IMG/VR virus record: IMGVR_UViG_3300042451_000960 | From: a virus | Lineage: Duplodnaviria; Caudoviricetes | Direction: 5' to 3' (one strand) | Length of the DNA: 64,000 bases | In this document: positions 9,942 through 44,649 of the stretch, piece by piece | Numbering within the stretch: the first letter of the stretch is position 1 | Layout of the letters: each line of letters opens with the position of its first letter | Made by a program: the position numbers and the translations under genes | Notes under the pieces: model-generated | Told to the model about the DNA's origin: nothing | The model's database searches: none | The model's input: only the letters and a program-made list of their open reading frames with translations

Positions 9942-11249
9942 TTAAACTTTATTAAGTTTTGGAATTTGCATTTTAGATGTATTTAATTTTGGAATATTAA
10001 ATGGTACTAATTTTGGCTGTGGTTTTATGTACGAATCAACAATATTAGTAAATCTTTCATGCATTTTTTCTAATGTGAAATTTTTTAAAGTATTTTCTCG
10101 TAGCCCTTCTGATTTTTCTAAATAAGAATTATAATTTTTATAAACATCATATATCTTATTAGCTGCATTTGAATAATTTGCACTAAACCATTGTGCTTCC
10201 TTTAGAATAAATTGGTCAGCAGCGGATTCATCAATTTGAGTTAGTGTACCTTCCAAAAACACAGTGTGTTCAGCTGGTAGGAAATCCATATGCCCACTCC
10301 AACCACTAGCTATAATTGGTTTACCTGTCAAAGTAAACTCAGCCATTGGTCTACCATACCCTTCACCTTTTGTGAATGAAATCATTGCTTTTATTTTTGG
10401 ATGATGATAAAGATTACTCATATCTGTTTCTTCCATGTCACCATGTAACAAATAAATTGGTGGACATTTTTGACCAAATGATTTTACAACATCTTCTATT
10501 TTTTGTCTAATGTTTTCTCTATCAATAACACTAAATCCAGCGTGTGATGTTTTTATTAAAAGAGCAGGTTTTTTATCCTTCGGAGTGTGTTGAAATACAG
10601 TTGCGAATGTTTTTAAAGTCATTCCAATATCTTTTCTATCTTGTCCCAAATTACCCTTTAACCAATGACCAACAACTAAGAAACAAAAATCTTCTTTTAT
10701 ATTTTCTAATATGTCAGCTTTATCACCAGGTCTTTCAAATCCTTTATTGAATATTTCAGTATCAACACCTTCGAACAAAACTTCAATTGGTTTTTGTAAT
10801 TTTATTTCACCAACAATTTCTCCAGTTTGTTGATTTTTTTGTTGATATACTGTACCTGCTAAGTTTTGCATTGTAAATTTAGATGGTACTATAATCAAAT
10901 CCATTTTATTAGACCCATCAATAAAATCTTTTGGACAAATTGTAGTTTCTACACCAGCAGTTACACCAATGTTATAATGTCCTTTTGGTTCAAATTCATT
11001 TGCTACTGAAACTTGCATAAACACATCCGGTTTATCACCAATCTCACCAATTACTCTCTCTAACATCCAGCGGCCAAAATCATCATCATCACTTACTTGG
11101 TTTTGTGGTGTATTACCCCAACGAAGTGGAATAATCTTTATATCGTACTTATCCATCTTACGAAGTGATTTCATCAAATCTCTACAATGGTCACCATACC
11201 CACTTCTAGTAAAAATAGGTCCCTGAAATACTAATGTTGGTTTATTCAT
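9942..11249 (-). CDS. GT4-like (GT-B) glycosyltransferase
   Basis: RSGYG, DRKDIG and GEGYGRPMAE...GKPIIASGWSGH motifs. Confidence 0.85.
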   Translation of the reverse strand: MNKPTLVFQGPIFTRSGYGDHCRDLMKSLRKMDKYDIKIIPLRWGNTPQNQVSDDDDFGRWMLERVIGEIGDKPDVFMQVSVANEFEPKGHYNIGVTAGVETTICPKDFIDGSNKMDLIIVPSKFTMQNLAGTVYQQKNQQTGEIVGEIKLQKPIEVLFEGVDTEIFNKGFERPGDKADILENIKEDFCFLVVGHWLKGNLGQDRKDIGMTLKTFATVFQHTPKDKKPALLIKTSHAGFSVIDRENIRQKIEDVVKSFGQKCPPIYLLHGDMEETDMSNLYHHPKIKAMISFTKGEGYGRPMAEFTLTGKPIIASGWSGHMDFLPAEHTVFLEGTLTQIDESAADQFILKEAQWFSANYSNAANKIYDVYKNYNSYLEKSEGLRENTLKNFTLEKMHERFTNIVDSYIKPQPKLVPFNIPKLNTSKMQIPKLNKV

Positions 11250-11259
11250 ATACTATAAC

Positions 11260-12642
11260 TTATTTAACTTTAAATACCTCAAATCTTTGGCGAGGTTTCC
11301 AATTTTCAAATGTTGATTCAATTCCATCAATTAATGTTTGGCACATATTTGTATGAGATAATCCTGCTTCGTTTATAAAATGTTCTCTACCTTTAAGAGC
11401 GTTTGCTTTTCTTTCTTCTTTTGGTGTGTTATACATTTTCTCAATTGCTTCAGCAACTTCGGTTACATCAACTCTATCATCCCAAATATAAGGCGTTGGT
11501 ACTGAACCTGCTAATGCCATTGCTCTACTCCATACCGGAATAGCCCAAGGACCAGGTTCTGCTTTGGCTTCCCATTTTCTCCACTCATGTAATGAACCAA
11601 TTTTAATATAATCGTCAGCAACTAATACATTGCCTTCTACTTTAAATCCACATTGGTCTTGCAATCCACCAGTTACATTTACGATGATTGGTGTACCAGC
11701 CATTACCGATTCTGCAGTTGCTAATCCAAATCCTTCGTTGTTAGCGATGTTGATTGTACAATCTACTATATTATAGATAAGATTCAATTCTTGTTGTGAC
11801 CTTCTTTTTTCTGAAAACTTAATATTAACATCAGATGCTACAGCTTCGATAACAGCATAAAGGTCAGTTCCATTTTCATCCACCGGTTGTGTATGCATTA
11901 ATAGTAAGCACTTATCTGCTTTTTCTTTTCCAATCTTGTCACAAAATAATTTATAAGCATATATAACATCAGCTGGTTGCTTTCTTCTAATATTACGATT
12001 TGACCAATAAAGAACAAAATCGTATTCTTTATCACCTAATACATCTTTTTTGAATTCTGCCGAAACTTCTTCCGGTTTGTATATATCAGTATTAATACCA
12101 TGTGGTACGTATCCTACTTGCCAATCAGCTTTTGGTTTCCAAGTTGGTTTATCAATTCTTGCACTAATTCTTTTAATGATACCATATGTTTGGCGAGATA
12201 TACAACCAATCCAATCACAACTTTCATAGAAGTTACGATTATACATTGGGTCTGGTAAATCATCCCAAATTGCGTAAAATAATAGTGGTACGTTTTGTCT
12301 AATTTCGTGCTCAATATCATATAACCAAGTCCAATAACGAGGGTCAGTAAAGTGTAGGATAGCATCTGGTCTTTCTGCGTTAATTAGTTGCCTAATCAAA
12401 TCCGCATTACCATAACCATTCCAAGGTAAAATTTTTACATTAGCATCTGCAATTCCATAATTTTTTTGGATGTCTTCACTTACATCTAAAACTTTACCTG
12501 CTTCTGGGTGATTAATTGCCGCACCTACTTGAAACCAATCGTATTTGTGAGCAGTTCCTAAAACCAATTCCTTAGACATTGTAGCGATACCACTCGCCAT
12601 TCTTAAATCATCTGAAAGTAACAATATTTTTTTCTTTGCCAT
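11260..12642 (-). CDS. GT4-like (GT-B) glycosyltransferase
   Basis: PHGIN, NRNIRRKQ and NEGFGLATAESVMAGTPII motifs. Confidence 0.85.
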   Translation of the reverse strand: MAKKKILLLSDDLRMASGIATMSKELVLGTAHKYDWFQVGAAINHPEAGKVLDVSEDIQKNYGIADANVKILPWNGYGNADLIRQLINAERPDAILHFTDPRYWTWLYDIEHEIRQNVPLLFYAIWDDLPDPMYNRNFYESCDWIGCISRQTYGIIKRISARIDKPTWKPKADWQVGYVPHGINTDIYKPEEVSAEFKKDVLGDKEYDFVLYWSNRNIRRKQPADVIYAYKLFCDKIGKEKADKCLLLMHTQPVDENGTDLYAVIEAVASDVNIKFSEKRRSQQELNLIYNIVDCTINIANNEGFGLATAESVMAGTPIIVNVTGGLQDQCGFKVEGNVLVADDYIKIGSLHEWRKWEAKAEPGPWAIPVWSRAMALAGSVPTPYIWDDRVDVTEVAEAIEKMYNTPKEERKANALKGREHFINEAGLSHTNMCQTLIDGIESTFENWKPRQRFEVFKVK

Positions 12643-16347: not shown

Positions 16348-17559
16348 TTATCTTCCTACTTCTCCCAAATATTTTTCTTTCATTTCTTCCCAGCTGATTC
16401 CAATCGCATCTATGTAGAATAAATGTTCAGGTTTGATTCTGCCTTCATCATGTAGTTTTGTGTATCTACTAATAGCGTGTTTTTTCCACCATTTATTGAT
16501 GTATTCTGTACCTTGCTTAAACTTATCTTTGATGATTAGTTTATCTTCGGTAATTTCGTTACGAAGGAATTCACAACCATTCTCATACATCATAGCCATA
16601 TACACACCTCTTTTAAATCCGTGATGATATTCAGTTGCCTTAATACCACATTCTTTAAAGATTTGTCCTAATATCTTTTGTTTGATACCACTAACAGGTC
16701 CGTTAGCTTCATATCCCATGTTAGCACCATTACGAGCTCTCTCATCTGATATATTTTCTTTATACCATTCGGCACGATTTTCTTTTAACCATTGATGCCA
16801 AGGGTCATAATACTTATCATCCGGCTTAATGCTAATCTTACCAGCCGATTCACCTAAAGTTTTGAAAAGTGGAATACCATTGTATTGAGAATGGATACCA
16901 TACAAAGATGTTGTACCTACTGCTATAAGTACATTCTCATATTTCTTCTTCCAATACTCTCTTACTTCCGGCACCGTAGTCATCATAGCGATTAACTTAC
17001 CACCTAAGAAGTTATAACCCAATGGTTGAGTACATACAATTGTAGAAGCAATAGTTGTATTATTTAACTTACCTTTTACAAATTTATCATCTTTAGTCCA
17101 ACCAATGAAGTTATCTCTCACACCTAATGCGGTTACATCGGATGCTAAAGAGATTTGACCTAATAACTTTCCGCTTGTTCTATCTTTTACATTAATCTTT
17201 ACATTTCTGCCAGGGTTTGCTGTAAAATCCATTGTGTGAATCATTCGTCTTACCGCTGCCCACTTAGTAGATTCTTTGGCATCATCCACAATCTCAACGT
17301 AAGGGTCTAACGATTCAATTTCTTTTATCGTTAGCTCCTTATTGTTGATGTCAGTTGGTCTCCATTGAAGGTCATAATAAGATGCAATTTGGGATTTAGC
17401 CTGAATCATTGTAGGGTCTTGCAACTCTACCCACTTTTTGTATAAAGTTTGCTCCTGCACAGACATCGTCATTAGATAGTCCATGTTTTCTTTTAACTTT
17501 TGTTTTTCAACATCAAAGTCAAAGACAGGTTTTTGTGGTTCGGTATCCCAAAAGCTCAT
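16348..17559 (-). CDS. DUF4338 (Druantia DruA-like) family protein
   Basis: PGRN...GKLLGQISLAS...RDNFIGW...PLGYNFLGGKL...TTSLYG pattern recognised as DUF4338-like. Confidence 0.65.
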   Translation of the reverse strand: MSFWDTEPQKPVFDFDVEKQKLKENMDYLMTMSVQEQTLYKKWVELQDPTMIQAKSQIASYYDLQWRPTDINNKELTIKEIESLDPYVEIVDDAKESTKWAAVRRMIHTMDFTANPGRNVKINVKDRTSGKLLGQISLASDVTALGVRDNFIGWTKDDKFVKGKLNNTTIASTIVCTQPLGYNFLGGKLIAMMTTVPEVREYWKKKYENVLIAVGTTSLYGIHSQYNGIPLFKTLGESAGKISIKPDDKYYDPWHQWLKENRAEWYKENISDERARNGANMGYEANGPVSGIKQKILGQIFKECGIKATEYHHGFKRGVYMAMMYENGCEFLRNEITEDKLIIKDKFKQGTEYINKWWKKHAISRYTKLHDEGRIKPEHLFYIDAIGISWEEMKEKYLGEVGR

Positions 17560-17561
17560 AA

Positions 17562-18257
17562 TTACTTAATTTCTACGAGGTAATAGTTTGAAGTGTAATC
17601 ACCATCGGTAAACGATACGTGTGATAATCCTTTAGATGAAATCTTTAATGAAGATGTCTTAGAACCTTTGTTAGCCATTAAGATAGCTTTCAAATACTTT
17701 GCTGAAAATGCTATTGGTTCAATATCTTCTTTACATTTACAATCTACAGCGATTGAAATTCGGTTAGAGTTAATTGAAGAATAACCCAATATAACTTCAC
17801 CACTTCCACCTTTACAAGTGAATGTAAATGTATCAGCATCAGCCAATGCACCTTTAGATTTGATGAACTTGTTAATAAAGTCATCATTAAGTGTAATCTC
17901 TGCATCAAATTCAGGCAAAGCCTTCAAATCGGGTACCGCAGGAATTACTGAAGGTGCTGCTAACATATATTGTACCTTAGTACCTTTATCAGCGAACTTA
18001 ACTGCTCCAGTTGTTTCTTCTACAGTGATTGCCTCATCCAATACACTCAACAATCCTTTTAATTGTGATGTAGTGTAGATGCCAAATTCACCTTTTGGAA
18101 AATCCTTTTCAGCTACAGTAACATCACCCAATAGAGTTTTGTCATCTGAAATCATTCTTACTGAAAGATTCTTACCATCGGCTTTTACCATAACGGATTC
18201 AATCTCACCACCAAGGTTGTAACGATTGATAAAACCATCAAATTTACTTTTGTTCAT
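17562..18257 (-). CDS. Sliding clamp (T4 gp45-like)
   Basis: 231 aa, two-domain clamp-like sequence, FGIYTTSQL motif; lies between PolB and the clamp loader. Confidence 0.75.
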   Translation of the reverse strand: MNKSKFDGFINRYNLGGEIESVMVKADGKNLSVRMISDDKTLLGDVTVAEKDFPKGEFGIYTTSQLKGLLSVLDEAITVEETTGAVKFADKGTKVQYMLAAPSVIPAVPDLKALPEFDAEITLNDDFINKFIKSKGALADADTFTFTCKGGSGEVILGYSSINSNRISIAVDCKCKEDIEPIAFSAKYLKAILMANKGSKTSSLKISSKGLSHVSFTDGDYTSNYYLVEIK

Positions 18258-18290
18258 AATATACTTTTTATAGTTTAAGTTTTAGAAATA

Positions 18291-18322
18291 CAAATATACG
18301 AAAAATTATTCAATCTACCAAA
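18291..18322 (-). promoter_or_regulatory. Bacteroidetes-type promoter (TTTG-N20-TATATTTG)
   Basis: Exact consensus on the minus strand upstream of the clamp gene. Confidence 0.7.
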
Positions 18323-20839
18323 TTAAAATGAAAAGAATTTTTCAGCGGTTTTAGCTGCGGAAAGTACCTCTCCCCATCCTAATGCTCCATAAAAATCCTC
18401 TAATTTCTTTAATAACTCCCTTTCAAAGATTTTGTCATAATCAATATATTGAGTTACCAACTCCATAATCTCAGGTGAATCATTATATCCTTTAAATGCC
18501 AATCCCTCTAATCCGTATGGGTTTTGTTTTAGATATACCCATTTAACTTTATCACCATCTCTCATTGGTTCGTATTTAGATGGAGATTTAAAGTGAACTA
18601 ATAATTGATTATGTGCAATTGCTGCTTTAACGTGCGCCGGAGTTGCTGATGCAAATTGGAACATTGCCGTTGGTTTCTTAGGCATGTACTTAGATAATTC
18701 CTTTACAGCCGAATTCTTAGCTATTGAAGTTACATCCATATTAACCAAATCTTTTTTGAATGCCTGAATCTTATCAGTCAAAATATCTTCAGTATCACCT
18801 TTTAGAATTTGAATAAGAACTTCACCCATAAATTTACGGAACTCGGCCGGATACGATGAACGTACTACGTCCAATCCTTTCACATCCAATCTATCCATCG
18901 GAATACCATTCTCAGCCACAATCCATTGTGCGTATCTTTTCTTAGCAATCCAAATACCACTTCTACTAACAAACTCTTTTTTAATTTGGAAACGATGTTT
19001 TTCTTTTGCTACGTTGAATATTTTTTCAGCCAATACATCATAAAAGTTATTTAAGAAATCCTGCGTTTCACCAGCTATACCATCCACTAATTGTGCAATC
19101 TCACTATCTTCTCTTTGTTTCCAATCAGGAAATCTAAAATCTAAGATAGGAACTGCTGAAAAGAATACGGAATCAGTATCAATATAAATGTTATAATCAC
19201 CGCCTTTAGTTCCCAACTCTTTGTTGTATTTAATGTTAGCCATATCCGCAGTTGATTTAATTACGGTCTGACCTGTTAGTGTTACCGCCTCAGCGTTATC
19301 CACATCATAGAAACGGAAAGCAGGTAATCCTAATACTCCATAAAGAGAGTTCAATAGAATCTTTTGTACCAGCTGTCTTTTCTTATAAAATGCGTATTTT
19401 TCTTTATCACCAGCTTCACCAAACTTCTTCTCCAACTTACGGAATTCAACCCTTTGGTCAAACCATAAATTAAGAATATCAGGGATACAACCCGGCTTAT
19501 CAGTTTTATATAGGACACCATTTGATGCTACCGAACACTTAGCTTCTTCAAATAGTTTCTTTAAGTTTTCTTTTGTAATCTGCCTATCACCAATTGTGTA
19601 CATATCAACTTCACCTTTCATAAACTTTTGTGCATCCCAATCATTAATCTTACCAATCTTAGTTTCAGGACTGATGTTTACAGTCATAATGATTGATGGG
19701 TAAAGTGAAGTTAAATCCAAGTCATATATCCATTCGTATTTACCAACGATAGGTGCTTTAACATATGCTCCAATAAACTTCTCTTCGTGATTCTCACGGA
19801 TTGCTTCCATACGTTCTTGTCTATCCGCAGGTTTGTTTGGTGCTACAATATTCTTTCTTTTAAGGTAAGTAAGCATCGCACCCTCTAAGTATTTAGATGA
19901 GTAAACGAAATCTTCATACGGAACATGTCCAGCGTGGCATATACCTCTACACAAATCAATGAATTGTAATTTTCTATCCAATGATACTACGAGGTCAACG
20001 TCAATTAAGTTATACTCAATAAACTTTTCAATATCATTCTTAAACAATTCATCTAAGTTACCTTTATATTCAACCTTACCACGTTTAAGTTCTTTCATAG
20101 CGATAGAATCTAAACGATAGTTATCCAATTCTGAATAAGTGTATGTACGATATAATTGTAAGTAGTCCAAATACGATACACCTGCCATAAAGAATCTCTT
20201 ACGATATGGTGACCAGAAACATTCTCCGATTGGTGATAGCCTATTAGCGTGTTTAGCACCCAATAATCGTTTAATACGATTGTATAAGTAAGGAGTATCA
20301 AAATAATCAATGTTCCACCCAGTAACAATACTTGGATTTATCATTTCATACAAATCCAAATACTTTAAAATCATATCCCTTTCATCTCTAAATGGAATTA
20401 CAGTTCTATTACCGGTATTACTTTCTTTCATCTTACCAGCCTTATCCATAATAAGAACCCAATAATGGTCAGTAGCAGAATCGTGCAAACCTATCGCTGT
20501 AAGTTCGTTCTCTGCTTTTTCCATATCAGGCAAACCCGTTTCCATTTCAACCTCAATATCGTATGTAAGCGTAACATGCCCTTCCGATGGAATATCGGAA
20601 TCGGTATAGGTATCAACTAAAACACGTGTGGTTTCAGGAACATCAGATTCAAATAATTCAGGATCATCTTTTTTGAATTTCCATATTTTAGTTAGCCTAT
20701 CACCATAAAGAGAAACATATTCACCTCTATCAGCTTTCTCATAAGCATATCTACTATATGGGAAAGTGCGGTATCCCAATTTATCATCCCAAATGTGCAC
20801 TAAATTCTTTTCTCTTTGATAATAACAATTTTGATACAT
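18323..20839 (-). CDS. DNA polymerase family B (T4 gp43-like)
   Basis: Exonuclease DIE and GWNIDYFD; polymerase DLTSLYPS, KILLNSLYG, YIDTDS and KKRYA. Confidence 0.97.
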   Translation of the reverse strand: MYQNCYYQREKNLVHIWDDKLGYRTFPYSRYAYEKADRGEYVSLYGDRLTKIWKFKKDDPELFESDVPETTRVLVDTYTDSDIPSEGHVTLTYDIEVEMETGLPDMEKAENELTAIGLHDSATDHYWVLIMDKAGKMKESNTGNRTVIPFRDERDMILKYLDLYEMINPSIVTGWNIDYFDTPYLYNRIKRLLGAKHANRLSPIGECFWSPYRKRFFMAGVSYLDYLQLYRTYTYSELDNYRLDSIAMKELKRGKVEYKGNLDELFKNDIEKFIEYNLIDVDLVVSLDRKLQFIDLCRGICHAGHVPYEDFVYSSKYLEGAMLTYLKRKNIVAPNKPADRQERMEAIRENHEEKFIGAYVKAPIVGKYEWIYDLDLTSLYPSIIMTVNISPETKIGKINDWDAQKFMKGEVDMYTIGDRQITKENLKKLFEEAKCSVASNGVLYKTDKPGCIPDILNLWFDQRVEFRKLEKKFGEAGDKEKYAFYKKRQLVQKILLNSLYGVLGLPAFRFYDVDNAEAVTLTGQTVIKSTADMANIKYNKELGTKGGDYNIYIDTDSVFFSAVPILDFRFPDWKQREDSEIAQLVDGIAGETQDFLNNFYDVLAEKIFNVAKEKHRFQIKKEFVSRSGIWIAKKRYAQWIVAENGIPMDRLDVKGLDVVRSSYPAEFRKFMGEVLIQILKGDTEDILTDKIQAFKKDLVNMDVTSIAKNSAVKELSKYMPKKPTAMFQFASATPAHVKAAIAHNQLLVHFKSPSKYEPMRDGDKVKWVYLKQNPYGLEGLAFKGYNDSPEIMELVTQYIDYDKIFERELLKKLEDFYGALGWGEVLSAAKTAEKFFSF

Positions 20840-21955
20840 CTATTCTTTTAATTTTTTATGTAATTCAATAAGCATCTTTCCTTCATTTTCTGAAAGTTCT
20901 AATGCTCTTTCAATACTTTTTTGTTCTCTTTCTTTTCTATAAGTATCGTCATCCAATATCTTGTCTAATAGTTCAAATAGGTCTTTTTTAAATTTAAAGA
21001 ACAATCCGTTTGGTTCTATTTCCTGATAACATAGTGATTCTTGATATATCATTGGTGTACCATTCATCAAGCAATCCGTTGCCGATACACTCCAACCATA
21101 ATTTGTTTGCCTCATTTGAATACCAACTTTACATTGTTGTAATCTACCATAATATTCATGCTTTGGAAGTTTAGTAGCATCAATCCAATTATGTTCCGGT
21201 GTTCCTTTTAATTGAGGCACCCATACACTAAAATCTTGTCTACGTTCCCTATATTCTTCCATCAATTTAATGAAAGCGGGATAACCTTTATAAGCTGCTG
21301 CTCTATGATTGAATACTATAATATTTCGTTTTTCTTCCGATGCTGATTCTATTACATTTTGTTTTGGTAAACCTAAGTTCCATACCACTAAAATATCATC
21401 TAGCTTTTTAACAAACTCATCATTGAACCAAATCTTAGCTTCTTCTAATACTCTATTCTTTTGGTCTTGTGTATTAAGGTAGCAAGTTTCCATTTGAGAT
21501 ATACCTAATAATTCAATTGGCATCCATCTCCATTTATTTTTTCTATCTTCCGCATTGCAGGATTTCATTTCCCACCAATGGCAATATCCAATTATTTTAG
21601 TATCAAATGAATTCTTATATCTTCCAACTTGAGGCCAATCAGGCAAATGTGAATAGATAACATCATACTCTAATGTTTCTAACAGCTTATTGAAATCCGG
21701 CGGATAGGTACGCATTTTAATCATATCACCAGAGAAGGGTAAGATATGCTGCTTTACATTTAGTAAATTCAATTTCTTAACCGGCTCGGGTAGTATAATA
21801 TTCCAAAAGTATTCTCCGTGTTGCTCTAAACCTTTTATATGGTTATAGATAACATCAACGAATGAATCCTTTTCTATATTAGCGGAATTGGTGATATTAG
21901 GTATCACCAAAACACGCCTTGCTTCTTTACTTAATTGCCCTTCCCAAAAATTCAT
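20840..21955 (-). CDS. GT-B glycosyltransferase, candidate DNA-modifying enzyme
   Basis: DVIYSHLP, VFNHR..YKG and WSVSATDCLMNGTPMI. Its stop (TAG) directly abuts the polB ATG. Confidence 0.65.
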   Translation of the reverse strand: MNFWEGQLSKEARRVLVIPNITNSANIEKDSFVDVIYNHIKGLEQHGEYFWNIILPEPVKKLNLLNVKQHILPFSGDMIKMRTYPPDFNKLLETLEYDVIYSHLPDWPQVGRYKNSFDTKIIGYCHWWEMKSCNAEDRKNKWRWMPIELLGISQMETCYLNTQDQKNRVLEEAKIWFNDEFVKKLDDILVVWNLGLPKQNVIESASEEKRNIIVFNHRAAAYKGYPAFIKLMEEYRERRQDFSVWVPQLKGTPEHNWIDATKLPKHEYYGRLQQCKVGIQMRQTNYGWSVSATDCLMNGTPMIYQESLCYQEIEPNGLFFKFKKDLFELLDKILDDDTYRKEREQKSIERALELSENEGKMLIELHKKLKE

Positions 21956-23232
21956 TAATCTAATTGATTTGTAATTGTTGTTTGCATTTCAATAATTTGA
22001 AATGTATATTTAAGTGGATGTAAGAAATATTTTAATTTTGCAATTGCATCCGGTTGATAATCTTGCTTCCACTTATCTTCAGCAGCTGGTCCGTTGTGAT
22101 GAACCAATATAACCAACTTTGATTTTGTCTTTTCTCTACTTTTTGTTTTCTTATCAATTTCAGTTTCACTAAATATATGATTAAAAATATTATCCCACTT
22201 AAACATTGCTGATGATAAAGCTATACACATTGTATCTTTATCTTTAGTACTATCTTTTTTTGCTTCCAAAGCTTTCTTACCAGACCCAGTTGTATAATCA
22301 ATCCACAATTGATTGGCCTTCTTTAAATCATCTTTATCTATTTCTTTCTGAGCTTCTAAAAGAATTGATTTTATTTGTTTATTTGTAAACTTCATTTCTT
22401 TAAGAAACTCTTTGTTAGATGAATCATTTACTGGTACTCCTTTTAAGTGTTGAGTTTGGATATATTTTATCATATCCAACTTACTAGCACGTTGCTTTAC
22501 TACATCAGAAGGTCTATTTAAAAGATTACCAACTGCTATTAATTCCTCATTTGTATATTCATTATGTACATCTTCAGGAATTACAGCAACAATAACATCT
22601 CTACCATGCTTTGATTTAAGAATACCAGCAACTGTATGGTTTCCATCAATAATAACATTATTACCAGCTTGTCTAGCTTTAGCTACAACCACTGGGTTAC
22701 ATTTATCAGTATTTCCACCCGCATCATCAATCTTTTCTGAAATTTCTCTTACATGCTCAGGATTTTCTAAAAACCTTACCTGTAACTTAAAGTACTTACT
22801 TACTTCTTCTATTGATTCTTTTGTATCCAATGTAAATTCGCCATTTTCAATTCTTGCAACTAACTCCTTAACTTTATCCACATCAATTGGTTTATACTTT
22901 GGAGCTCCATTTGTTAAATTGAAATACATAGGATTGTTTTTAGCATCAGCTTCAGAAAGTATTTTGTGTTCCGACACAGTCATTTGATTATAATCACCAT
23001 ATTCTAAAATTTCAAATTTAAGATTAGAATCGGTATTAGATAATAGTTTATTAAACTCTTTATTTTGTGATGAATGCCAATAACCATCACCAACATATCC
23101 TTTATGGACACCAACATATACTCTATTGGTATCCATATCGGTAAAACGATATAAATATCCCTCATATGTAGTGGGCATATTTCCTAACTGAACATCTTTA
23201 ACTGATTCCGGTTTATTTGCAAATAAATTCAT
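21955..23232 (-). CDS. GIY-YIG (Seg-like) nuclease domain fused to a ParB/Srx-like domain
   Basis: N-terminal YLYRFTDMDTNRVYVGVH...ILEY...YFNL; central PVVV...IIDGNHT. Confidence 0.6.
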   Translation of the reverse strand: MNLFANKPESVKDVQLGNMPTTYEGYLYRFTDMDTNRVYVGVHKGYVGDGYWHSSQNKEFNKLLSNTDSNLKFEILEYGDYNQMTVSEHKILSEADAKNNPMYFNLTNGAPKYKPIDVDKVKELVARIENGEFTLDTKESIEEVSKYFKLQVRFLENPEHVREISEKIDDAGGNTDKCNPVVVAKARQAGNNVIIDGNHTVAGILKSKHGRDVIVAVIPEDVHNEYTNEELIAVGNLLNRPSDVVKQRASKLDMIKYIQTQHLKGVPVNDSSNKEFLKEMKFTNKQIKSILLEAQKEIDKDDLKKANQLWIDYTTGSGKKALEAKKDSTKDKDTMCIALSSAMFKWDNIFNHIFSETEIDKKTKSREKTKSKLVILVHHNGPAAEDKWKQDYQPDAIAKLKYFLHPLKYTFQIIEMQTTITNQLD

Positions 23233-23268
23233 TCTTTTATGTTTTATGATTTTAAAAATTTTACTATG

Positions 23269-23300
23269 TAAAGATACGAAAAATCCCCCAATTTGCCAAA
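23269..23300 (-). promoter_or_regulatory. Bacteroidetes-type promoter (TTTG-N20-TATCTTTA)
   Basis: Consensus on the minus strand upstream of the GIY-YIG/ParB-GT-polB genes. Confidence 0.65.
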
Positions 23301-23313
23301 TAAATTAGGGGAT
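23279..23313 (-). terminator. Intrinsic terminator after the Mom-like gene
   Basis: 12-bp stem AUCCCCUAAUUU/AAAUUGGGGGAU (one G-U pair) followed by a U-run. Confidence 0.6.
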
Positions 23314-23348
23314 AATTTATAATCAATTGATTATCAATGAGTTACATA

Positions 23349-24149
23349 TTACCAATAGTTTTCAGCCCCTTCAGGTGCTACATAATTCGTTTCATGTCTT
23401 ACCACTTCGGTGTTAAAATCGGTAGCACTTTTTGGATATGATTTGATGGGATGTTTGAGTGCCTTCATCATAGCCTTTCTTTCTTTCTTATCTTGTGGAA
23501 GTAATTGTACATATCGGTGCTTTGGTGGCTCCATTCTTCTCCAAAAGTATTGATAACCTTCTTTACCAATTTCATTTTTTAAATGCTCTAAGTTACCACT
23601 ACCCCATTTACTGAATACAGTTCTACTATGAATCCATTTGTAAGGATTTTCTTGCAAAGATATACCCCAATTTGGCATTAATGCAATATCAGATGAAATA
23701 CCCTGATATATCCAATTGGTAGCTTGATAAATTGCTCCTAAGTGTTGTTGTCCTGCATCAGCATAAGATAGTAACAACTTAATATTTTTATCATTTTCTT
23801 TAATCCACTTAAACGATTGTGATATTGCATATGATTCAATATTAGAACCATAACCATCATCACAATACAAACGGGTCAATTCTAAAATGTTATCTTTAGT
23901 CAATCCTTCACAAACAGATGTTGCTGCTTTTGCTCCAACAGGGAATCCGTAAATAATACAACCTATAAGTTTATCACCATCAAAGGTCATAGCATCTTCT
24001 GATTTATAATAGATACCTAATGCATAACGGCAAGATGTCCAAGCGTGAGTATAGTGTCTCTGAACAATAATATCTTTTGCGATATTTTTAGCTATTGGTG
24101 CGATGTACACTTTACTTACATCACAATATTGTTTACCTTCTACTTTCAT
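23349..24149 (-). CDS. mom: Mom-like adenine-modification acyltransferase (paralog 2)
   Basis: HY...LIGCIIYGFP...LELTRL...NIESYAISQS...SYADAGQQHLGAIYQATNWIYQG, the Mu Mom family signature. Confidence 0.8.
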   Translation of the reverse strand: MKVEGKQYCDVSKVYIAPIAKNIAKDIIVQRHYTHAWTSCRYALGIYYKSEDAMTFDGDKLIGCIIYGFPVGAKAATSVCEGLTKDNILELTRLYCDDGYGSNIESYAISQSFKWIKENDKNIKLLLSYADAGQQHLGAIYQATNWIYQGISSDIALMPNWGISLQENPYKWIHSRTVFSKWGSGNLEHLKNEIGKEGYQYFWRRMEPPKHRYVQLLPQDKKERKAMMKALKHPIKSYPKSATDFNTEVVRHETNYVAPEGAENYW

Positions 24150-24313
24150 TACCAGAATTTCTTTTTATCTTTTTTAGGTGGATTGGTTTCCAATTCCTTT
24201 TTTAATTTCTTTTTTTCAGCCGGCGTTAGGTTTGTCATCTTCTGCCATTCTTCCAACTTTTCCCAACTATCAATTATATAATAACCTTCCTTATCCTTTG
24301 TTAGCTTTGCCAT
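24149..24313 (-). CDS. Small basic hypothetical protein (54 aa)
   Basis: Not in the ORF track. MAKLTKDKEGYY...PPKKDKKKFW; its stop overlaps the Mom ATG and its start overlaps the upstream ORF end. Confidence 0.6.
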   Translation of the reverse strand: MAKLTKDKEGYYIIDSWEKLEEWQKMTNLTPAEKKKLKKELETNPPKKDKKKFW

Positions 24314-24539
24314 TTGCTAATGCTTTTTCCAATGTTGATTGTTTCTTTTCCAACTTTGCCAACTTTGCTCTTTGCTTCATTTGTTTATCATAGCCGGCTG
24401 GATATTTGTTTGTTACTTCAATAGGTCCATTTGGAAATTTCTTTAAATCATATTTCCAAACTGATTCAACCCCATCATCATCTTTATATACGTGTTCAAA
24501 CTTTGTGGGTTTTTCTATTGGTCCTTTAGATACTGCCAT
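24291..24539 (-). CDS. Hypothetical protein (82 aa)
   Basis: ORF directly downstream of a consensus promoter. Confidence 0.6.
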   Translation of the reverse strand: MAVSKGPIEKPTKFEHVYKDDDGVESVWKYDLKKFPNGPIEVTNKYPAGYDKQMKQRAKLAKLEKKQSTLEKALANGKANKG

Positions 24540-24553
24540 ATCATAAATTTATA

Positions 24554-24585
24554 CAAATATACGAAATTATTCTGAAACTACCAAA
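24554..24585 (-). promoter_or_regulatory. Bacteroidetes-type promoter (TTTG-N20-TATATTTG)
   Basis: Exact consensus on the minus strand. Confidence 0.7.
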
Positions 24586-25340
24586 TCTATCGGGTCCATT
24601 CTATGAACTTCATCAATAATATCCAACTCTACCTTTGGATACGGAAAGACCTCATGTTTAAGTGATTTTAAGAGGGCTTTACGCTCCTTCTTATCTTTGG
24701 TTAGAATATACACATATCGGTGCTTACGGGGTTCTCTTTTAATCCAGAATGGGCTTGTAACCATTGTCTGAATTATCTTCGGGTCATTCGTTCCGTACTT
24801 CACATAAGATGTCCGAGAATGATGCCATTCATCATCTTCACTCCATTTGAAACTCCAACTATCTGACCATCTGATTTTATTACCCTGATATATCCAATTG
24901 GTAGCTTGATATACCGTTCCTAAGTGCCCAGCATTTGGGTCTGAATAAGATATAAGTGCTTTGATACGAGGTACATTAGTTCTTAACCATTCGAAAGTTT
25001 GTCCAACGAACCAACTTTCAATGTTACTACCATACCCATCGAATACGAATAGTCTTGTCAATTCTAATACACCATCTCTAGGAAGTAATTCGGAAATTGA
25101 TGCTCCGGCGTTTCTACCAACCGGGTCACCATAACAGGCAACTCCAACTAATTGTTCGTTTACACCACTAAAAAAATTATGTTCATCTTCGGATATATAA
25201 AACAAGCCAATAGCATAGGATACCTTTGTCCATATACCACTGTAATGGTTATTGACAATAATATCCTTTGCAATATTCTTATTGATTTCTCTTATTGAGA
25301 ATTTGGATATGTCACAATATTGTTTTCCTTCTACTTTCAT
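24567..25340 (-). CDS. mom: Mom-like adenine-modification acyltransferase (paralog 1)
   Basis: HYSG...GVACYGDP...LELTRLF...NIESWFVGQ...SYSDPNAGHLGTVYQATNWIYQG. Confidence 0.8.
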   Translation of the reverse strand: MKVEGKQYCDISKFSIREINKNIAKDIIVNNHYSGIWTKVSYAIGLFYISEDEHNFFSGVNEQLVGVACYGDPVGRNAGASISELLPRDGVLELTRLFVFDGYGSNIESWFVGQTFEWLRTNVPRIKALISYSDPNAGHLGTVYQATNWIYQGNKIRWSDSWSFKWSEDDEWHHSRTSYVKYGTNDPKIIQTMVTSPFWIKREPRKHRYVYILTKDKKERKALLKSLKHEVFPYPKVELDIIDEVHRMDPIDLVVSE

Positions 25341-25540
25341 ATACTACCAGACCAAAATTCATTTAGATGATTCCAAGTTTTACGTTGGATAATCTTCATT
25401 ACATTGGCTGGGGAAACTTTATTGTTTCTTGCAATCACCTTTACGTTTCGGTGACCCATATTCCATAATCTTCTGATGTTTAGAACTTGCTCATCTGTCA
25501 GTTTAGCGGCAGGATGAGTTTGCCCTCTTAAAATAGCCAT
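25337..25540 (-). CDS. Stand-alone HTH protein resembling the DNA-binding tail of HNH homing endonucleases
   Basis: G.THPAAKLTDEQV..IR...IA....VS...V..I...KTW pattern. Confidence 0.6.
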   Translation of the reverse strand: MAILRGQTHPAAKLTDEQVLNIRRLWNMGHRNVKVIARNNKVSPANVMKIIQRKTWNHLNEFWSGSI

Positions 25541-39914: not shown

Positions 39915-41195
39915 TTAGAGGTTTCCGTAAGTTTTTCCCCAACTTGCTTTGATTGGAAACCCACCTTCTTCAATTATTTCTTTCAAACCCTTAATCAAAC
40001 TCTTATCCACATTGGTAGGTACATCAAATAGAAACGAGTCATAGGTATATAGGTCTAATGTAATCCCAGTCCCCTTAATAAAATCTAATATCTTTCTCAT
40101 CTTTTCAACATTCACTTCCGTTTCAAATGCCTGAAGTAGATAGTTAAATACTTTTTGTGGGTTTGCTTGTTCAACCCAATCCAATGGAATTAATCGGTTT
40201 GGTGTCTTAATACAACTACATTCAACACTCGCATCCCAAAATCGGTCTATGAAATCTGCCACCTTATCAAAGTACGGAATCTGTCTAAATTCGTCATCAA
40301 TCCCACCATATAAAAGACGGAATGTTACTCCTTTAGCCTCATCAATTCCACAACCATATTGTTCAGCCAACCATTGGTGAACGTTTCCATCAGGCATAGG
40401 GTATCCTACCAATTTACCGATTAGTCTTGGGTGATATGCGTTGTAATCCATTTGTAGGAATATCCCATCAGAAACGAACACATCTCTACTACCATCGGTT
40501 TTGTTTAGGGCGGCATAGTTCACACCGGCATGTCTATTCGAAGGTCTACCAGTTACAGTGAACGGATTGTATTCGGTGTACACTACATCACCTTTGAGAT
40601 GTTTGTAGGCTTGGGGCCATCTATCAACAAATTTTTCCCTATCGACCCGAATCCCAAATCGTTCAATATCTGAAAGGGTTGGTAAGAAGGTATCGTTGTA
40701 CCAATTATAAGTTTTACTCTTTTGATTTGTATGTTTAAGTAATTGTGGTTCTATTGCTTCCGCAAGTTTAAGAATAGGAATGGATTGAATGACATCTTCT
40801 CGGTAACCCCTATGAATAAGGGGAGCTACTAAGTGGTGTAGTGGTTGAGAATAGTCTATTGTTTCACCTGTCTTTAAGAAATAAGCGGTGTCAATGTCAT
40901 TCAGTCCTTCCCTTAGTGTAACAAAAGATTGTAGTAGCTTTTTCTTTTGGAATACCCATTTTTCTCCGGCAGTATTCAACAGTCCCTCTATTTGCTCATT
41001 AGAGAGTGATAGAGCGTCTGTGTGTTGATGTGGTAGTATATACCTGTCCGTTAGGGTTCTTACGAATATAAACGATATAGGGGTATTACATGGGTGCTTA
41101 TCATTATCTACCCATAGTGAATACCAAATGGATGGTTCAGTTTCCAGCTTTACCTTTAATTCGTTTAATTCGTCAATAGACTCAACAATTCTCAT
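39915..41195 (-). CDS. Divergent short family-A DNA polymerase-like protein
   Basis: TGRPS, motif A QMDYNAYHPR, motif B AKGVTFRLLYG, motif C YTYDSFLFD. Start reassigned to ATG at 41195 because the track's longer ORF overlaps the tmRNA. Confidence 0.75.
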   Translation of the reverse strand: MRIVESIDELNELKVKLETEPSIWYSLWVDNDKHPCNTPISFIFVRTLTDRYILPHQHTDALSLSNEQIEGLLNTAGEKWVFQKKKLLQSFVTLREGLNDIDTAYFLKTGETIDYSQPLHHLVAPLIHRGYREDVIQSIPILKLAEAIEPQLLKHTNQKSKTYNWYNDTFLPTLSDIERFGIRVDREKFVDRWPQAYKHLKGDVVYTEYNPFTVTGRPSNRHAGVNYAALNKTDGSRDVFVSDGIFLQMDYNAYHPRLIGKLVGYPMPDGNVHQWLAEQYGCGIDEAKGVTFRLLYGGIDDEFRQIPYFDKVADFIDRFWDASVECSCIKTPNRLIPLDWVEQANPQKVFNYLLQAFETEVNVEKMRKILDFIKGTGITLDLYTYDSFLFDVPTNVDKSLIKGLKEIIEEGGFPIKASWGKTYGNL

Positions 41196-41200
41196 TACCA

Positions 41201-41232
41201 CAAATATACAAAAAAAATCCCAAACTACCAAA
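41201..41232 (-). promoter_or_regulatory. Bacteroidetes-type promoter (TTTG-N20-TATATTTG)
   Basis: Exact consensus ending 5 nt before the polA-like ATG. Confidence 0.7.
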
Positions 41233-41249
41233 TAATAGTTCGGGATTTT
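41211..41249 (-). terminator. Intrinsic terminator of the tmRNA
   Basis: 14-bp stem AAAAUCCCGAACUA/UAGUUUGGGAUUUU (one G-U pair) plus a U-run just 3' of the CCA end. Confidence 0.7.
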
Positions 41250-41250
41250 G

Positions 41251-41640
41251 TGGTGGAGATGACCGGACTCGAACCGGTGTCTTACGAAGTAACCACAATA
41301 CCAGCTTTTCACACGTTTAGGATAAGGTTTAATCTTATTCACCTTCCAAAATAATTGGGGCCGAATGGTTAGTTCAGCGCTACCACCAACAGGTCCGGAT
41401 TTTAAGAGGCGATCTGTAATCCTCTCTTTTGTTCACTTCTATTTAAATTCCACGAGTGATGCGGAAGGGATTAGGCTGCTACAGCGTAATCAGCACCTAC
41501 GAATGCCATAACGTCATCGAAGGTCCAAGTAGATAATTCTACGTCATTTATTGTTTGATTCCGAGATTTAAGTGGTTTGAGAACCTTCCCACTACGTGTG
41601 ATACTATGTTTCGCATCGCAATCAATTCCAAAACATCCCC
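41251..41640 (-). ncRNA. ssrA: tmRNA (transfer-messenger RNA), 390 nt
   Basis: 5' GGGGAUG pairs with 3' CAUCUCC-A-CCA, giving the G3-U70 alanine identity pair. T-arm ACCGG-UUCGAGU-CCGGU. Internal tag ORF 41471..41545 ends YAVAA*. Confidence 0.95.
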
Positions 41641-41653
41641 ATATCAATAAATA

Positions 41654-41685
41654 CAAATATAAGAAAAAATATTTAGATTTCCAAA
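41654..41685 (-). promoter_or_regulatory. Bacteroidetes-type promoter for tmRNA
   Basis: TTTG-N20-TATATTTG ending 13 nt before the mature tmRNA 5' end. Confidence 0.7.
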
Positions 41686-42380
41686 TTAAAATTAATTACA
41701 CATCGGTGTTTTTTACCATAAAAAGGTTTTACCGAATGAACTATATCATTTGGCCATAACATTAACATTCCTTGTTTAGGTCTTACAAAATGTGACATAC
41801 CTCTTAGGTGAAAACAAAATGCTCCGCTGTATGGGTGGTCTTTTAGCGGTTCACCATCACTTAGATAATATCCACCACTAAACCCAACTTTAGGTTCTTC
41901 ATCGGATTTCCAACGGCAGTGATTATGTTGGTTGTGTCCCCTACCCTCATATGGGTCATAATATTGTATCCAACTTTCGGTTATTTTACATTGATGATTG
42001 TGCGGTATTTCCAGAGAATCTAAAAGTTCAAAAAAACTATCTTCAATTCTTTTTCTGATTATTTTTACACCTTCGTTTTCATCATCCAAAAAATTATTTG
42101 GTGGTGTATGAAATCTACTACCTATTGGATTAAATTCAGTATCTTCAACCCACATATCACTATTATCGTTTGTTTCATATGTTGCCTGCCTTTGTTCATC
42201 ATATCTTTCAGGCAATTCCTGCCCCATTTTCTTTTCTGTTTTGTTTAATTTATTATAACCATAAACATAGACCGAATCATGCAATTGTTTATCATCGTAT
42301 TCTTTACGAAGAACTGGAATAGGAGCTAGATAATAAAGATTATCTTTGTCCGATTTAATTAGTGGTTGTTTGAAGTTCAT
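41673..42380 (-). CDS. Putative 2OG-Fe(II) oxygenase (TIGR02466-like)
   Basis: ESWIQYY...HNQHNH...FSGGYY...P.QG.LMLWP..IVHSV.P...R.VINFN. Confidence 0.75.
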   Translation of the reverse strand: MNFKQPLIKSDKDNLYYLAPIPVLRKEYDDKQLHDSVYVYGYNKLNKTEKKMGQELPERYDEQRQATYETNDNSDMWVEDTEFNPIGSRFHTPPNNFLDDENEGVKIIRKRIEDSFFELLDSLEIPHNHQCKITESWIQYYDPYEGRGHNQHNHCRWKSDEEPKVGFSGGYYLSDGEPLKDHPYSGAFCFHLRGMSHFVRPKQGMLMLWPNDIVHSVKPFYGKKHRCVINFNLEI

Positions 42381-44531: not shown

Positions 44532-44532
44532 A

Positions 44533-44646
44533 TTAATGTGGGTATGTGAATGGGTCTCTTTTTTTGAGCTCTTTTATTTTTGTTTTCAATCTTTTTCTAG
44601 TTTGATATTTTTTTATTTTTTCAAATATCCATTTTAAAATTCTCAT
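44533..44646 (-). CDS. Small basic peptide (37 aa)
   Basis: Not in the ORF track. MRILKWIFEKIKKYQTRKRLKTKIKELKKRDPFTYPH fills the gap between the carbamoyltransferase and SGNH genes exactly. Confidence 0.55.
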   Translation of the reverse strand: MRILKWIFEKIKKYQTRKRLKTKIKELKKRDPFTYPH

Positions 44647-44649
44647 ACA

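What the first reader, a model, noticed from the sequence alone, without database searches (positions are those of the whole stretch)
16348..25340. Candidate multi-enzyme DNA hypermodification island wired into the replisome operon
Seen: around polB and the clamp sit two Mom-family acyltransferases, a GIY-YIG/ParB fusion, a GT-B whose stop abuts the polB start, and a DUF4338-like gene, all co-oriented. Known: Mu Mom modifies adenine N6; T-even GT-B enzymes glucosylate DNA; ParB-like and GT genes have been linked by gene neighbourhood to phage base-modification systems. Inference: this phage may install more than one modification, or a compound acyl-plus-sugar base, during or right after replication. 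I know of no characterised system with this gene combination.
Basis: partly seen in the sequence, partly recalled or inferred. Interest (0 to 1): 0.85.

Follow-up and report, generated by a model that had tools for sequence, protein, structure and literature searches.

The report
Phage DNA-modification genes inside replisome operon
An uncultured lake-water phage has put two Mom-type DNA-modifying enzymes, and a widely conserved nuclease/ParB protein paired with a sugar transferase, into its DNA-replication operon, so it most likely decorates its DNA in more than one way, although no chemistry has been shown.

Summary
On the minus strand, 16348-25340 carries two Mom-family genes, an unnamed 425-aa protein, a glycosyltransferase whose TAG stop is followed directly by the polB ATG, polB, the clamp and a DruA/DUF4338-like gene. 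Structure prediction shows the 425-aa protein is GIY-YIG + ParB/Srx + helical + C-terminal domains, and the transferase has a GT-B fold.

Across 79 distinct related contigs the 425-aa protein ("P425") has a glycosyltransferase directly next to it in 47. In divergent members that neighbour is a T4 alpha-glucosyltransferase-family enzyme, a TET-associated glycosyltransferase, or a C5 DNA methylase (once with a TET-like gene). The P425 family therefore partners with DNA-base-modifying enzymes. The DruA-like gene travels with this pair, even where no polB lies in the fetched flanks. It also occurs alone in replisome clusters of cultured cyanophages and pelagiphages.

The Mom pair is an old duplication. 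Both copies keep most of Mu Mom's catalytic residues. It is a separable module.

My reading is two or three DNA-modification modules, not one proven compound pathway. The chemistry is untested. This is a new variant of a known kind. The scan noted this stretch before (e1-5391921) and a Mom/DUF4338 kit on other DNA (e1-3427586).

The parts
25337..25540 (-). 67-aa small protein; its stop overlaps the MomA start. It sits in the order thioredoxin - this gene - Mom in relatives.
   Evidence: ORF; homologues in 24 loci; gene order; weak PHROG match to the C-terminal part of HNH endonucleases, E=1e-6. Function unknown.
24567..25340 (-). MomA, 257 aa, Mom-family GNAT. By homology it is an aminoacyl-tRNA-dependent modifier of adenine N6 in dsDNA.
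   Evidence: PF25680 E=1.5e-43. Mu Mom structure 8bv8 E=6e-11, with the equivalents of H58, Y59, R111, S124, D149 and Y159 kept and R151 not kept. MomA clade support 97/96.
24291..24539 (-). 82-aa lysine-rich ORF between the two Mom genes. It is conserved only in the closest relatives.
   Evidence: homologues in 8 loci; no family match. A DNA contig in run X1 skips 24150-24419.
23349..24149 (-). MomB, 266 aa, Mom-family GNAT, 48% identical to MomA.
   Evidence: PF25680 E=1e-44; 8bv8 E=1.2e-6; paralogue comparison; MomB clade support 98/94 with one member per phage.
23283..23313 (-). Terminator-like hairpin (12-pair stem followed by a T run) in the 116-bp gap between MomB and the 425-aa gene. 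A near-perfect 11+11 palindrome lies just before it.
   Evidence: Weak evidence: the region holds no more terminator-like sites than shuffled sequence does.
21955..23232 (-). P425: GIY-YIG (about residues 20-110), ParB/Srx-like domain (about 130-235), helical HTH-like domain (about 247-308), and an unassigned alpha/beta C-terminal domain (about 309-425).
   Evidence: Model pLDDT 90. Foldseek and VIA matches. Invariant residues Y28, Y39, G41, E88, N100, N105, Q151, R153, G197, H199. 273 clusters at 50% identity reach E<=1e-30.
20840..21955 (-). GT371: divergent GT-B (GT4-like) glycosyltransferase, translationally coupled to P425 (TAATG) and to polB (TAG then ATG).
   Evidence: Directly adjacent to P425 in 41 of 79 distinct loci. 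Absent from PHROGs and from cultured phage records.
18323..20839 (-). Family B DNA polymerase.
   Evidence: PF00136 and PF03104; phrog_262 E=2.5e-184. 52% identical to the polB of Microcystis phage Mel-JY01.
17562..18257 (-). Sliding clamp (processivity factor).
   Evidence: phrog_223 E=1.4e-14.
16348..17559 (-). DruA/DUF4338-like protein, 403 aa. PMC10853773 calls this domain a GNAT.
   Evidence: PF14236 E=3.8e-18; phrog_19197; viral DruA clusters in the ESM Atlas; invariant residues.

Best explanation
The stretch is the replisome operon of a large uncultured freshwater phage. Two, possibly three, separable DNA-modification modules have been built into it.

Module 1 is the Mom pair. By homology to Mu Mom, each copy should move an aminoacyl group from a charged tRNA onto N6 of adenine in double-stranded DNA after replication. 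Two anciently duplicated copies, both retained, imply two specificities (sequence context or amino acid) or a heterodimer.

Module 2 is P425 plus GT371. P425 is a DNA-binding ParB/Srx-type protein with a Seg-like GIY-YIG nuclease domain, and it is the dedicated partner of a DNA-acting transferase. GT371 uses a nucleotide-sugar to glycosylate a base in phage DNA, probably a hydroxyl-bearing modified base. P425 either loads or activates the GT on duplex DNA, as ParB-like activators do for phage thymine dioxygenases. Alternatively or additionally, it cuts DNA that lacks the modification, as T4 endonuclease II does to host DNA.

The DruA-like GNAT commonly rides with module 2. It may supply a further acyl-type mark or the acceptor for the sugar.

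Shown here: gene identities, folds, conserved residues and conserved linkage. Inferred: every chemical step, the modified base, the sugar, and the role of P425.
For: Mom: both paralogues score E~1e-44 against PF25680. They keep the Mu Mom residues reported as needed for activity, except R151. The MomA and MomB clades each hold one copy per phage.

P425 and GT371: high-confidence folds and translational coupling. A GT lies directly adjacent in 47 of 79 distinct loci and within two genes in 17 of the 24 loci that have at least 3 kb on both sides. The gene order is sometimes inverted.

Neighbour swapping in divergent P425 loci. L056: C5 methylase, Tet_JBP-like gene (E=1.3e-6, below cut-off), T4 alpha-glucosyltransferase family (PF11440, E=1e-18), then P425. 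L066 and L022: TET-associated GT (PF20691, E=9e-8 and 8e-11). L048: C5 DNA methylase (E=4e-55).

The DruA-P425-GT371 trio recurs with no polB called in the 6-kb flanks fetched (L146/L147).

Precedents in the literature: a ParB-like activator is needed for a phage thymine dioxygenase on dsDNA (PMC13229309). DNA GTs are found beside ParB-like, polymerase and clamp genes (10.1101/2023.12.21.572611). Modification-plus-nuclease pairing has been proposed for Mom-REase fusions (PMC7824862).
Against: No modified nucleoside has been observed. No read-level data were available, only assembled contigs.

GT371 is not a sequence member of any known DNA-GT family. Pfam hits are sub-threshold, and hhalign against the AGT-type neighbours gives probability 0.5%. 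Its nearest solved folds act on small molecules and lipids.

No source of hydroxymethyl-pyrimidine was found in the window. The only 2OG oxygenase here is not TET/JBP-type.

The genome is rich in other glycosyltransferases, so a non-DNA acceptor is possible.

The DruA-like gene exists without P425 or the GT in cultured cyanophages and pelagiphages. It shows no significant profile similarity to Mom.

P425 lacks the canonical ParB GERRxR box (it has GDGNHT instead) and has no obvious equivalent of the I-TevI catalytic Arg.
Confidence: 0.55

Rival explanations
1. One integrated pathway. A GNAT (Mom or DruA-like) installs an aminoacyl or acyl group on a base, and GT371 then glycosylates that group under the control of P425. 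The product is a compound acyl-plus-sugar base.
For: DruA-like, P425 and GT371 travel together through rearrangements and with no polB in the fetched flanks. No hydroxymethyl-pyrimidine source was seen in the window, so another acceptor is needed. Mom chemistry shows that a GNAT can put an amino-acid-derived group on DNA.
Against: Mom genes are absent from the fetched flanks of most DruA-P425-GT loci. The DruA-like gene occurs without P425 or a GT in cultured phages. Its relation to Mom was not significant here. A hairpin separates the Mom pair from P425-GT. In one relative a TET-associated GT sits between P425 and GT371, which points to a hydroxymethyl-pyrimidine route.
Confidence: 0.17
2. 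P425 is chiefly a modification-sensitive nuclease, the restriction half of a phage-borne modification/restriction pair. It degrades unmodified host or competitor DNA, and the neighbouring transferase protects the phage genome. It is not an activator of the transferase.
For: The GIY-YIG motif residues are invariant across the family (Y28, Y39, G41, E88, N100, N105). The partner enzyme varies while P425 stays, which is how restriction-modification-like pairs behave. The GIY-YIG fold also matches a 5hmC-specific restriction endonuclease (9u75, Z 5.3). PMC7824862 proposes the same logic for Mom-REase fusions. That T4 endonuclease II is a GIY-YIG enzyme sparing modified phage DNA is from my own knowledge.
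Against: No equivalent of the I-TevI catalytic Arg is evident. ParB-like partners of phage DNA dioxygenases act as activators. No nuclease assay has been done.
Confidence: 0.3
3. GT371 does not act on DNA. It glycosylates a protein (replisome or virion) or a small molecule, and it sits beside polB only for reasons of expression timing.
For: The closest solved folds are MshA, BshA, PimA and glycogen/sucrose-phosphate synthases. Top viral structural matches include Arthrobacter phage glycosyltransferases of unknown acceptor. The window carries many other GT genes.
Against: The adjacency to a DNA-binding ParB/GIY-YIG protein is tight, conserved and often translationally coupled. That partner family sits beside bona fide DNA GT and methylase families elsewhere.
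Confidence: 0.15
4. The phage DruA-like protein is a counter-defence decoy or inhibitor aimed at host Druantia-type systems, not an enzyme of a modification pathway.
For: It belongs to the family of a bacterial defence protein. Lone phage copies are common.
Against: Many residues are invariant across deep divergence, including a GNAT-motif-A-like QPxGxN..GGKL stretch, which suggests catalysis. It holds a fixed place in replisome clusters of cyanophages and pelagiphages and is linked to P425-GT.
Confidence: 0.07

Closest known systems
Mom of bacteriophage Mu (PF25680; PDB 8bv8; PMC13219725)
   Same: Both window paralogues are clear family members and keep the equivalents of H58, Y59, R111, S124, D149 and Y159. 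Having several Mom genes in one large phage is already reported (PMC7824862).
   Different: There are two diverged copies (48% identity), kept as orthologous pairs across relatives. They sit in an early/replication-type operon rather than being a tightly controlled late gene. R151 is not conserved. The amino acid, the tRNA and the target sequence are unknown.
Phage DNA glycosylation gene clusters (T4 alpha/beta-glucosyltransferases; C5-methylase + 5mYOX/TET + GT clusters; Pyle et al., bioRxiv 10.1101/2023.12.21.572611)
   Same: A GT-B enzyme lies beside ParB-like, polymerase and clamp genes. One relative (L056) has the textbook order of C5 methylase, TET-like gene and AGT next to a P425 homologue.
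   Different: GT371 is a separate GT-B family with no significant sequence link to AGT or TAGT. No methylase, TET or hydroxymethylase gene lies next to it in the window.
ParB-like activators of phage thymine dioxygenases (PMC13229309)
   Same: A ParB/Srx-fold protein is encoded beside a post-replicative DNA-modifying enzyme.
   Different: P425 carries an N-terminal GIY-YIG nuclease domain, an HTH-like helical domain and a different C-terminal domain. Its partner is a glycosyltransferase. No activation has been shown.
DruA of type I Druantia (PF14236/DUF4338)
   Same: The domain matches over nearly the whole Pfam model (positions 46-296 of 297).
   Different: There is no druBCDE. The gene is phage-encoded, lies in a replisome cluster, and is linked to P425 and a GT.
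Seg-type GIY-YIG homing endonucleases and T4 endonuclease II (comparison from my own knowledge)
   Same: Same nuclease fold, with the motif pattern Y..YxGxH..D.Y...E...N.
   Different: P425 is a conserved single-copy orthologue at a syntenic position in at least 79 phage contigs, and it has fixed extra domains. This is not the sporadic distribution of a homing element.

Membership tests
Mom (PF25680) | Profile match above Pfam's gathering score | tested here: met
   153 and 149 bits against a cut-off of 27.1.
Mom (PF25680) | Residues reported as essential or important in Mu Mom (R111, S124; also H58, Y59, D149, Y159) | tested here: met
   Pairwise alignments to 8bv8 and the 21-sequence alignment: HY, ELxR, NxES, SYxD and GxxY are invariant or nearly so. 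Residue list from PMC13219725.
Mom (PF25680) | R151 (essential in Mu Mom) | tested here: not met
   The aligned position is N in MomA and G in MomB. A conserved His three to five residues later might substitute; this is not tested.
Mom (PF25680) | tRNA-dependent aminoacyl transfer to adenine N6 in dsDNA | not testable with these tools
   Needs an enzyme assay or nucleoside mass spectrometry.
GT-B glycosyltransferases (GT4-like) | Two-Rossmann-domain GT-B fold | tested here: met
   Model pTM 0.83. MshA TM 0.70, E=4e-13, and hundreds of GT-B hits.
GT-B glycosyltransferases (GT4-like) | Pfam GT4/GT1 profile match above threshold | tested here: not met
   19.6 and 18.5 bits against cut-offs of 28.5 and 26.4.
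T4-type DNA glucosyltransferases (AGT PF11440) and TET-associated GT (PF20691) | Sequence membership | tested here: not met
   No Pfam hit. hhalign against the AGT-type neighbours gives probability 0.5%. This lowers 'is an AGT/TAGT', not 'acts on DNA'.
ParB/Srx (ParB-CTPase fold) | N-terminal ParB/Srx fold | tested here: met
   Foldseek: 6sdk, 7bnr and 8qa8 at probability 1.0, E about 3e-4. VIA: PadC Z 8.0, KorB Z 7.4, sulfiredoxin Z 7.3.
ParB/Srx (ParB-CTPase fold) | Canonical CTP-binding GERRxR box | tested here: not met
   The family has an invariant GDGNHT (DGQHR-like) plus an LQVR motif. Nucleotide binding was not tested.
GIY-YIG nucleases | Fold and the Y / YxG / E / N motif residues | tested here: met
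   I-TevI catalytic domain Z 6.8, TM 0.60. Y28, Y39, G41, E88, N100 and N105 are invariant.
GIY-YIG nucleases | Catalytic Arg (I-TevI R27 equivalent) | tested here: inconclusive
   No invariant Arg lies at the expected spacing. H43 and K44 are nearly invariant, as in the Seg-type pattern (the Seg comparison is from my own knowledge).
DruA / DUF4338 (PF14236) | Profile match above the gathering score | tested here: met
   66.1 bits against 27.
Type I Druantia system | druA followed by druB-druE | tested here: not met
   The neighbours are the clamp, polB, dUTPase and the clamp loader.
Mom-like fold for the DruA-like protein | Detectable homology to Mom | tested here: inconclusive
   hhalign probability 1%, E=0.05, over one short stretch.

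The most novel reading that the evidence does not exclude
The DruA-like GNAT puts an acyl or aminoacyl group on a DNA base. The P425-guided GT-B enzyme then glycosylates that group, giving a new class of compound (amino-acid-plus-sugar) DNA base made at the replication fork. This would also reveal that DruA of type I Druantia is a DNA-modifying enzyme.
Probability: 0.15. Interest if true: 0.85.

Novelty: new variant of a known kind. Interest (0 to 1): 0.6.

Why it matters
Phage DNA hypermodifications defeat restriction and CRISPR, and they are a source of enzymes for biotechnology.

This work defines a large uncharacterised protein family: GIY-YIG + ParB/Srx, with at least 273 clusters at 50% identity. 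The family marks DNA-glycosylation and DNA-methylation gene sets in aquatic phages. It is paired with an undescribed GT-B family that is absent from cultured phage records.

The work also ties the enigmatic DruA/DUF4338 domain to such sets, and to the replisome clusters of cultured cyanophages and pelagiphages. Those cultured phages make the function of DruA experimentally approachable.

Finally, it gives a natural case of two long-maintained Mom paralogues. This could show how the specificity of Mom for tRNA, amino acid or DNA sequence evolves.

Tried and rejected
- Complex prediction of P425 with GT371 gave no verdict. It is not evidence either way.
- hhalign of the DruA-like family against the Mom family was not significant.
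- hhalign of GT371 against the AGT-type neighbours was not significant.
- PDB sequence and profile searches for P425, GT371 and the DruA-like protein found nothing useful.
- Megablast of the stretch against cultured phages found no match.
- No whole genome is held for this window. The ThyA gene mentioned in earlier notes could therefore not be examined.
- A thymidylate-synthase search in five relatives' contigs (22-41% complete) found nothing, which proves nothing.
- Single-sequence locus searches from distant P425 members added little.
- RNA-library contigs touch the DruA-like gene, clamp, polB, the GT/polB junction, the 82-aa ORF and MomA. Contigs from RNA libraries do not prove transcription.
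- Homing-endonuclease reading of P425: rejected, because the family is a conserved syntenic orthologue with fixed extra domains.
- Primase or another replisome role for P425 or GT371: rejected on their folds.
- A winged-helix reading of the roughly 80-aa C-terminal extension in long GT371 homologues rests on one faint Pfam hint (E=0.048) and is not claimed.
- The ~330-aa family between the DruA-like gene and P425 in marine relatives showed no similarity to the TET-like gene of L056.
Full report
**What is there.** All genes between 9.9 kb and 41 kb of the window run on the minus strand. They form a T4-like replication module. In order it holds:
- a gp32-like SSB, RecA/UvsX, a 5'-3' exonuclease, a DnaB-type helicase, a class II ribonucleotide reductase and thioredoxin;
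- the stretch in question (below);
- an unassigned 134-aa gene, dUTPase, the clamp-loader subunits and a PD-(D/E)XK nuclease.

Inside 16348-25340 the genes are, in order of transcription:
- MomA (24567-25340);
- an 82-aa ORF (24291-24539);
- MomB (23349-24149);
- a 425-aa protein, here called P425 (21955-23232);
- a 371-aa protein, here called GT371 (20840-21955);
- polB (18323-20839);
- the sliding clamp (17562-18257);
- a DruA/DUF4338-like protein (16348-17559).

The P425 stop overlaps the GT371 start (TAATG). The GT371 stop (TAG) is followed at once by the polB ATG. The closest cultured phage by polB is Microcystis phage Mel-JY01 (52% identity). It has polB, clamp and clamp loader but none of the extra genes beside them.

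**Checking the two unnamed proteins.** P425 has no Pfam, PHROG or PDB sequence match. It belongs to a large metagenomic family of constant length. An exhaustive profile search found 273 clusters at 50% identity with E<=1e-30. With a 42-sequence alignment, AlphaFold2 gave a confident model (pLDDT 90). Its domains are:
- Residues 24-107 match the I-TevI GIY-YIG catalytic domain (VIA Z 6.8; Foldseek TM 0.60).
- Residues 130-297 match ParB-CTP structures, KorB, PadC and sulfiredoxin (Foldseek E about 3e-4; VIA Z 7.3-8.0).
- Residues 247-308 form a small helical bundle.
- Residues 309-425 have no clear match.

The invariant residues fit these assignments. Y28, Y39-x-G41, E88 and N100/N105 lie in the nuclease part. 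LQVR and GDGNHT (a DGQHR-like box) lie in the ParB part.

GT371 has only sub-threshold GT4/GT1 hits. Its model (pTM 0.83) is a GT-B fold. The best solved match is MshA (TM 0.70, E=4e-13), and hundreds of GT-B hits follow, including phage enzymes. It is absent from PHROGs and from 50,697 cultured phage records.

**Is the linkage conserved?** I fetched about 140 related loci and reduced them to 79 distinct ones by the sequence of the P425 homologue.
- A glycosyltransferase lies directly next to P425 in 47 loci. It belongs to the GT371 family in 41.
- The fetched stretch also holds a DruA-like gene in 36 loci, Mom genes in 22 and polB in 32.
- Among the 24 loci with at least 3 kb on both sides, a GT is within two genes in 17 and a DruA-like gene is present in 15.

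The order changes between lineages:
- window: Mom-Mom-P425-GT-polB-clamp-DruA;
- L002: Mom-Mom-DruA-P425-GT-polB;
- L003: clamp-DruA-GT-P425-clamp loader-x-Mom (x = one small gene);
- marine clades: polB-DruA-(x)-P425-GT.

A distant member (L146/L147) has DruA-P425-GT371 with UvdE, an ATP-grasp ligase and a sigma-like gene around it. No polB was called within the 6-kb flanks fetched.

**The most telling result.** Where the GT371 family is missing, the gene beside P425 is another DNA-modifying enzyme:
- L056: a T4 alpha-glucosyltransferase-family protein (PF11440, E=1e-18), preceded by a C5 DNA methylase and a TET/JBP-like gene (E=1.3e-6, below Pfam's cut-off);
- L066 and L022: a TET-associated glycosyltransferase (PF20691);
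- L048: a C5 DNA methylase (E=4e-55); its relative L065 was labelled the same way by the local profile search;
- L047 and L053: a different GT1-type enzyme.

A protein that stays while its enzymatic neighbour is swapped among known DNA-base modifiers is most simply a dedicated partner of such enzymes. By the same logic GT371 most likely acts on DNA. This is association evidence, not chemistry.

**The Mom pair.** Mu Mom has recently been shown to transfer glycine from Gly-tRNA(Gly) to N6 of adenine in duplex DNA; the glycyl group then rearranges on the base (PMC13219725). Both window paralogues match the family at E~1e-44. They keep the equivalents of H58, Y59, R111, S124, D149 and Y159, but not R151. 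The two are 48% identical. In a maximum-likelihood tree they fall into two well-supported clades (97/96 and 98/94). Most phages in the tree contribute one copy to each clade, so the duplication is old and both copies are kept. Relatives carry further classes, a 199-aa form and a 281-aa form. The 281-aa form sits between the two clamp-loader genes.

A 116-bp gap with a terminator-like hairpin separates MomB from P425. Most DruA-P425-GT loci have no Mom in reach. I therefore treat the Mom pair as its own module. Several Mom genes per jumbo phage is already in the literature (PMC7824862). That fits a tRNA-dependent enzyme, but I did not test it.

**The DruA-like gene.** It matches PF14236 over nearly the whole model. 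PMC10853773 calls DUF4338 a GNAT domain. The family has many invariant residues, including a motif-A-like QPxGxN..GGKL stretch, which argues for an enzyme.

Profile-profile comparison with the Mom family was not significant. So I could not confirm the Mom-like fold that earlier notes of this scan report for other DUF4338 proteins (e1-3427586, e1-5236446).

Homologues exist in cultured phages. They are full-length in Pelagibacter phages Mosig and HTVC008M, and domain-length in many T4-like cyanophages. In S-CAM9 the gene lies between the two clamp-loader genes, about 3 kb from gp43. Those phages lack GT371 and mostly lack P425. The DruA-like protein can therefore work without them. Its link to P425-GT is real but not obligatory.

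**How it most likely works.** Shown: identities, folds, conserved residues, conserved and partly translationally coupled gene order, and the swapping of neighbours. Inferred:
- MomA and MomB aminoacylate adenine after replication, with different specificities.
- GT371 transfers a sugar to a base in phage DNA.
- P425 binds DNA through its ParB/HTH part. It either activates the transferase on duplex DNA, as the ParB-like partner of a phage thymine dioxygenase does (PMC13229309), or cuts unmodified DNA through its GIY-YIG domain, or both.
- The DruA-like protein adds a further acyl-type mark or makes the sugar's acceptor.

The acceptor base is unknown. No TET-type or hydroxymethylase gene is in the window, and the rest of the genome could not be searched.

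**What is known and what is new.** Already described:
- Mom chemistry;
- several Mom genes per phage;
- ParB-like partners of DNA-modifying enzymes;
- DNA glycosyltransferases near polymerase, clamp and ParB-like genes.

I found no description of the following in the papers I could search:
- the GIY-YIG-ParB family itself;
- its pairing with this GT-B family;
- its recurrent company with a DruA-like gene.

I therefore class the finding as a new variant of a known kind, with interest 0.6. The phage is common in lake-water metagenomes: 18 runs hold half or more of the sampled words, and the 20 runs holding any part come from 19 studies. Environmental DNA for a direct test should therefore be obtainable.

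Noticed in passing
window 41251-41640 (-): ARAGORN calls a tmRNA-like gene with a 24-residue tag peptide ending in AA. It overlaps the start of the 475-aa ORF at 39915-41342.
   Followed up: no
window 24149-24238 (-): A 29-codon lysine-rich ORF whose TAA stop overlaps the MomB ATG (TAATG). A DNA contig in one lake metagenome run skips 24150-24419, removing this ORF and part of the 82-aa ORF.
   Followed up: partly
window 11260-12642 (-), and 9942-11249 (-): A 460-aa glycosyltransferase matches Pfam 'GT4 in conflict systems' (PF20706, E=1.5e-6). It is conserved downstream of the PD-(D/E)XK gene in 11 related loci. The next gene (435 aa) has no family. These might be further DNA-directed transferases, or the edge of the glycan cluster.
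   Followed up: partly
window 41673-49398 (-): A NodU/CmcH-type carbamoyltransferase (E=4e-60), a GT25, two DUF6734 proteins and a 2OG oxygenase that is not TET/JBP-type lie together. Carbamoyltransferases are known both from sugar tailoring and from 5hmC modification.
   Followed up: partly
L143 (Synechococcus phage S-CAM9) 5677-6828; L142 (Pelagibacter phage Mosig) 6911-8209: DruA/DUF4338-like genes sit inside the replisome clusters of cultured T4-like cyanophages (between the two clamp-loader genes) and pelagiphages. One record annotates such a gene as 'methylcarbamoylase mom'.
   Followed up: partly
L053 8945-9931, L062 2546-3553, L137, L066, L047, L043: In marine relatives that use a GT1-type or TET-associated transferase, a ~330-aa protein family with no Pfam or PHROG match lies between the DruA-like gene and P425. 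It may be another pathway enzyme.
   Followed up: partly
L146/L147 2175-3996: A UvdE endonuclease and a RimK-type ATP-grasp ligase lie just upstream of a DruA-P425-GT371 trio with no polB in the fetched flanks. Amino-acid ligases are plausible hypermodification enzymes.
   Followed up: no
L052, L055, L075, L022, L146 (long GT371 homologues, residues ~370-460): Many GT371 homologues carry an extra C-terminal part of about 80 aa with a conserved GWG(R/V)xIKWxxYR motif. There is one faint winged-helix hint (E=0.048). This part is absent in the window's copy.
   Followed up: partly
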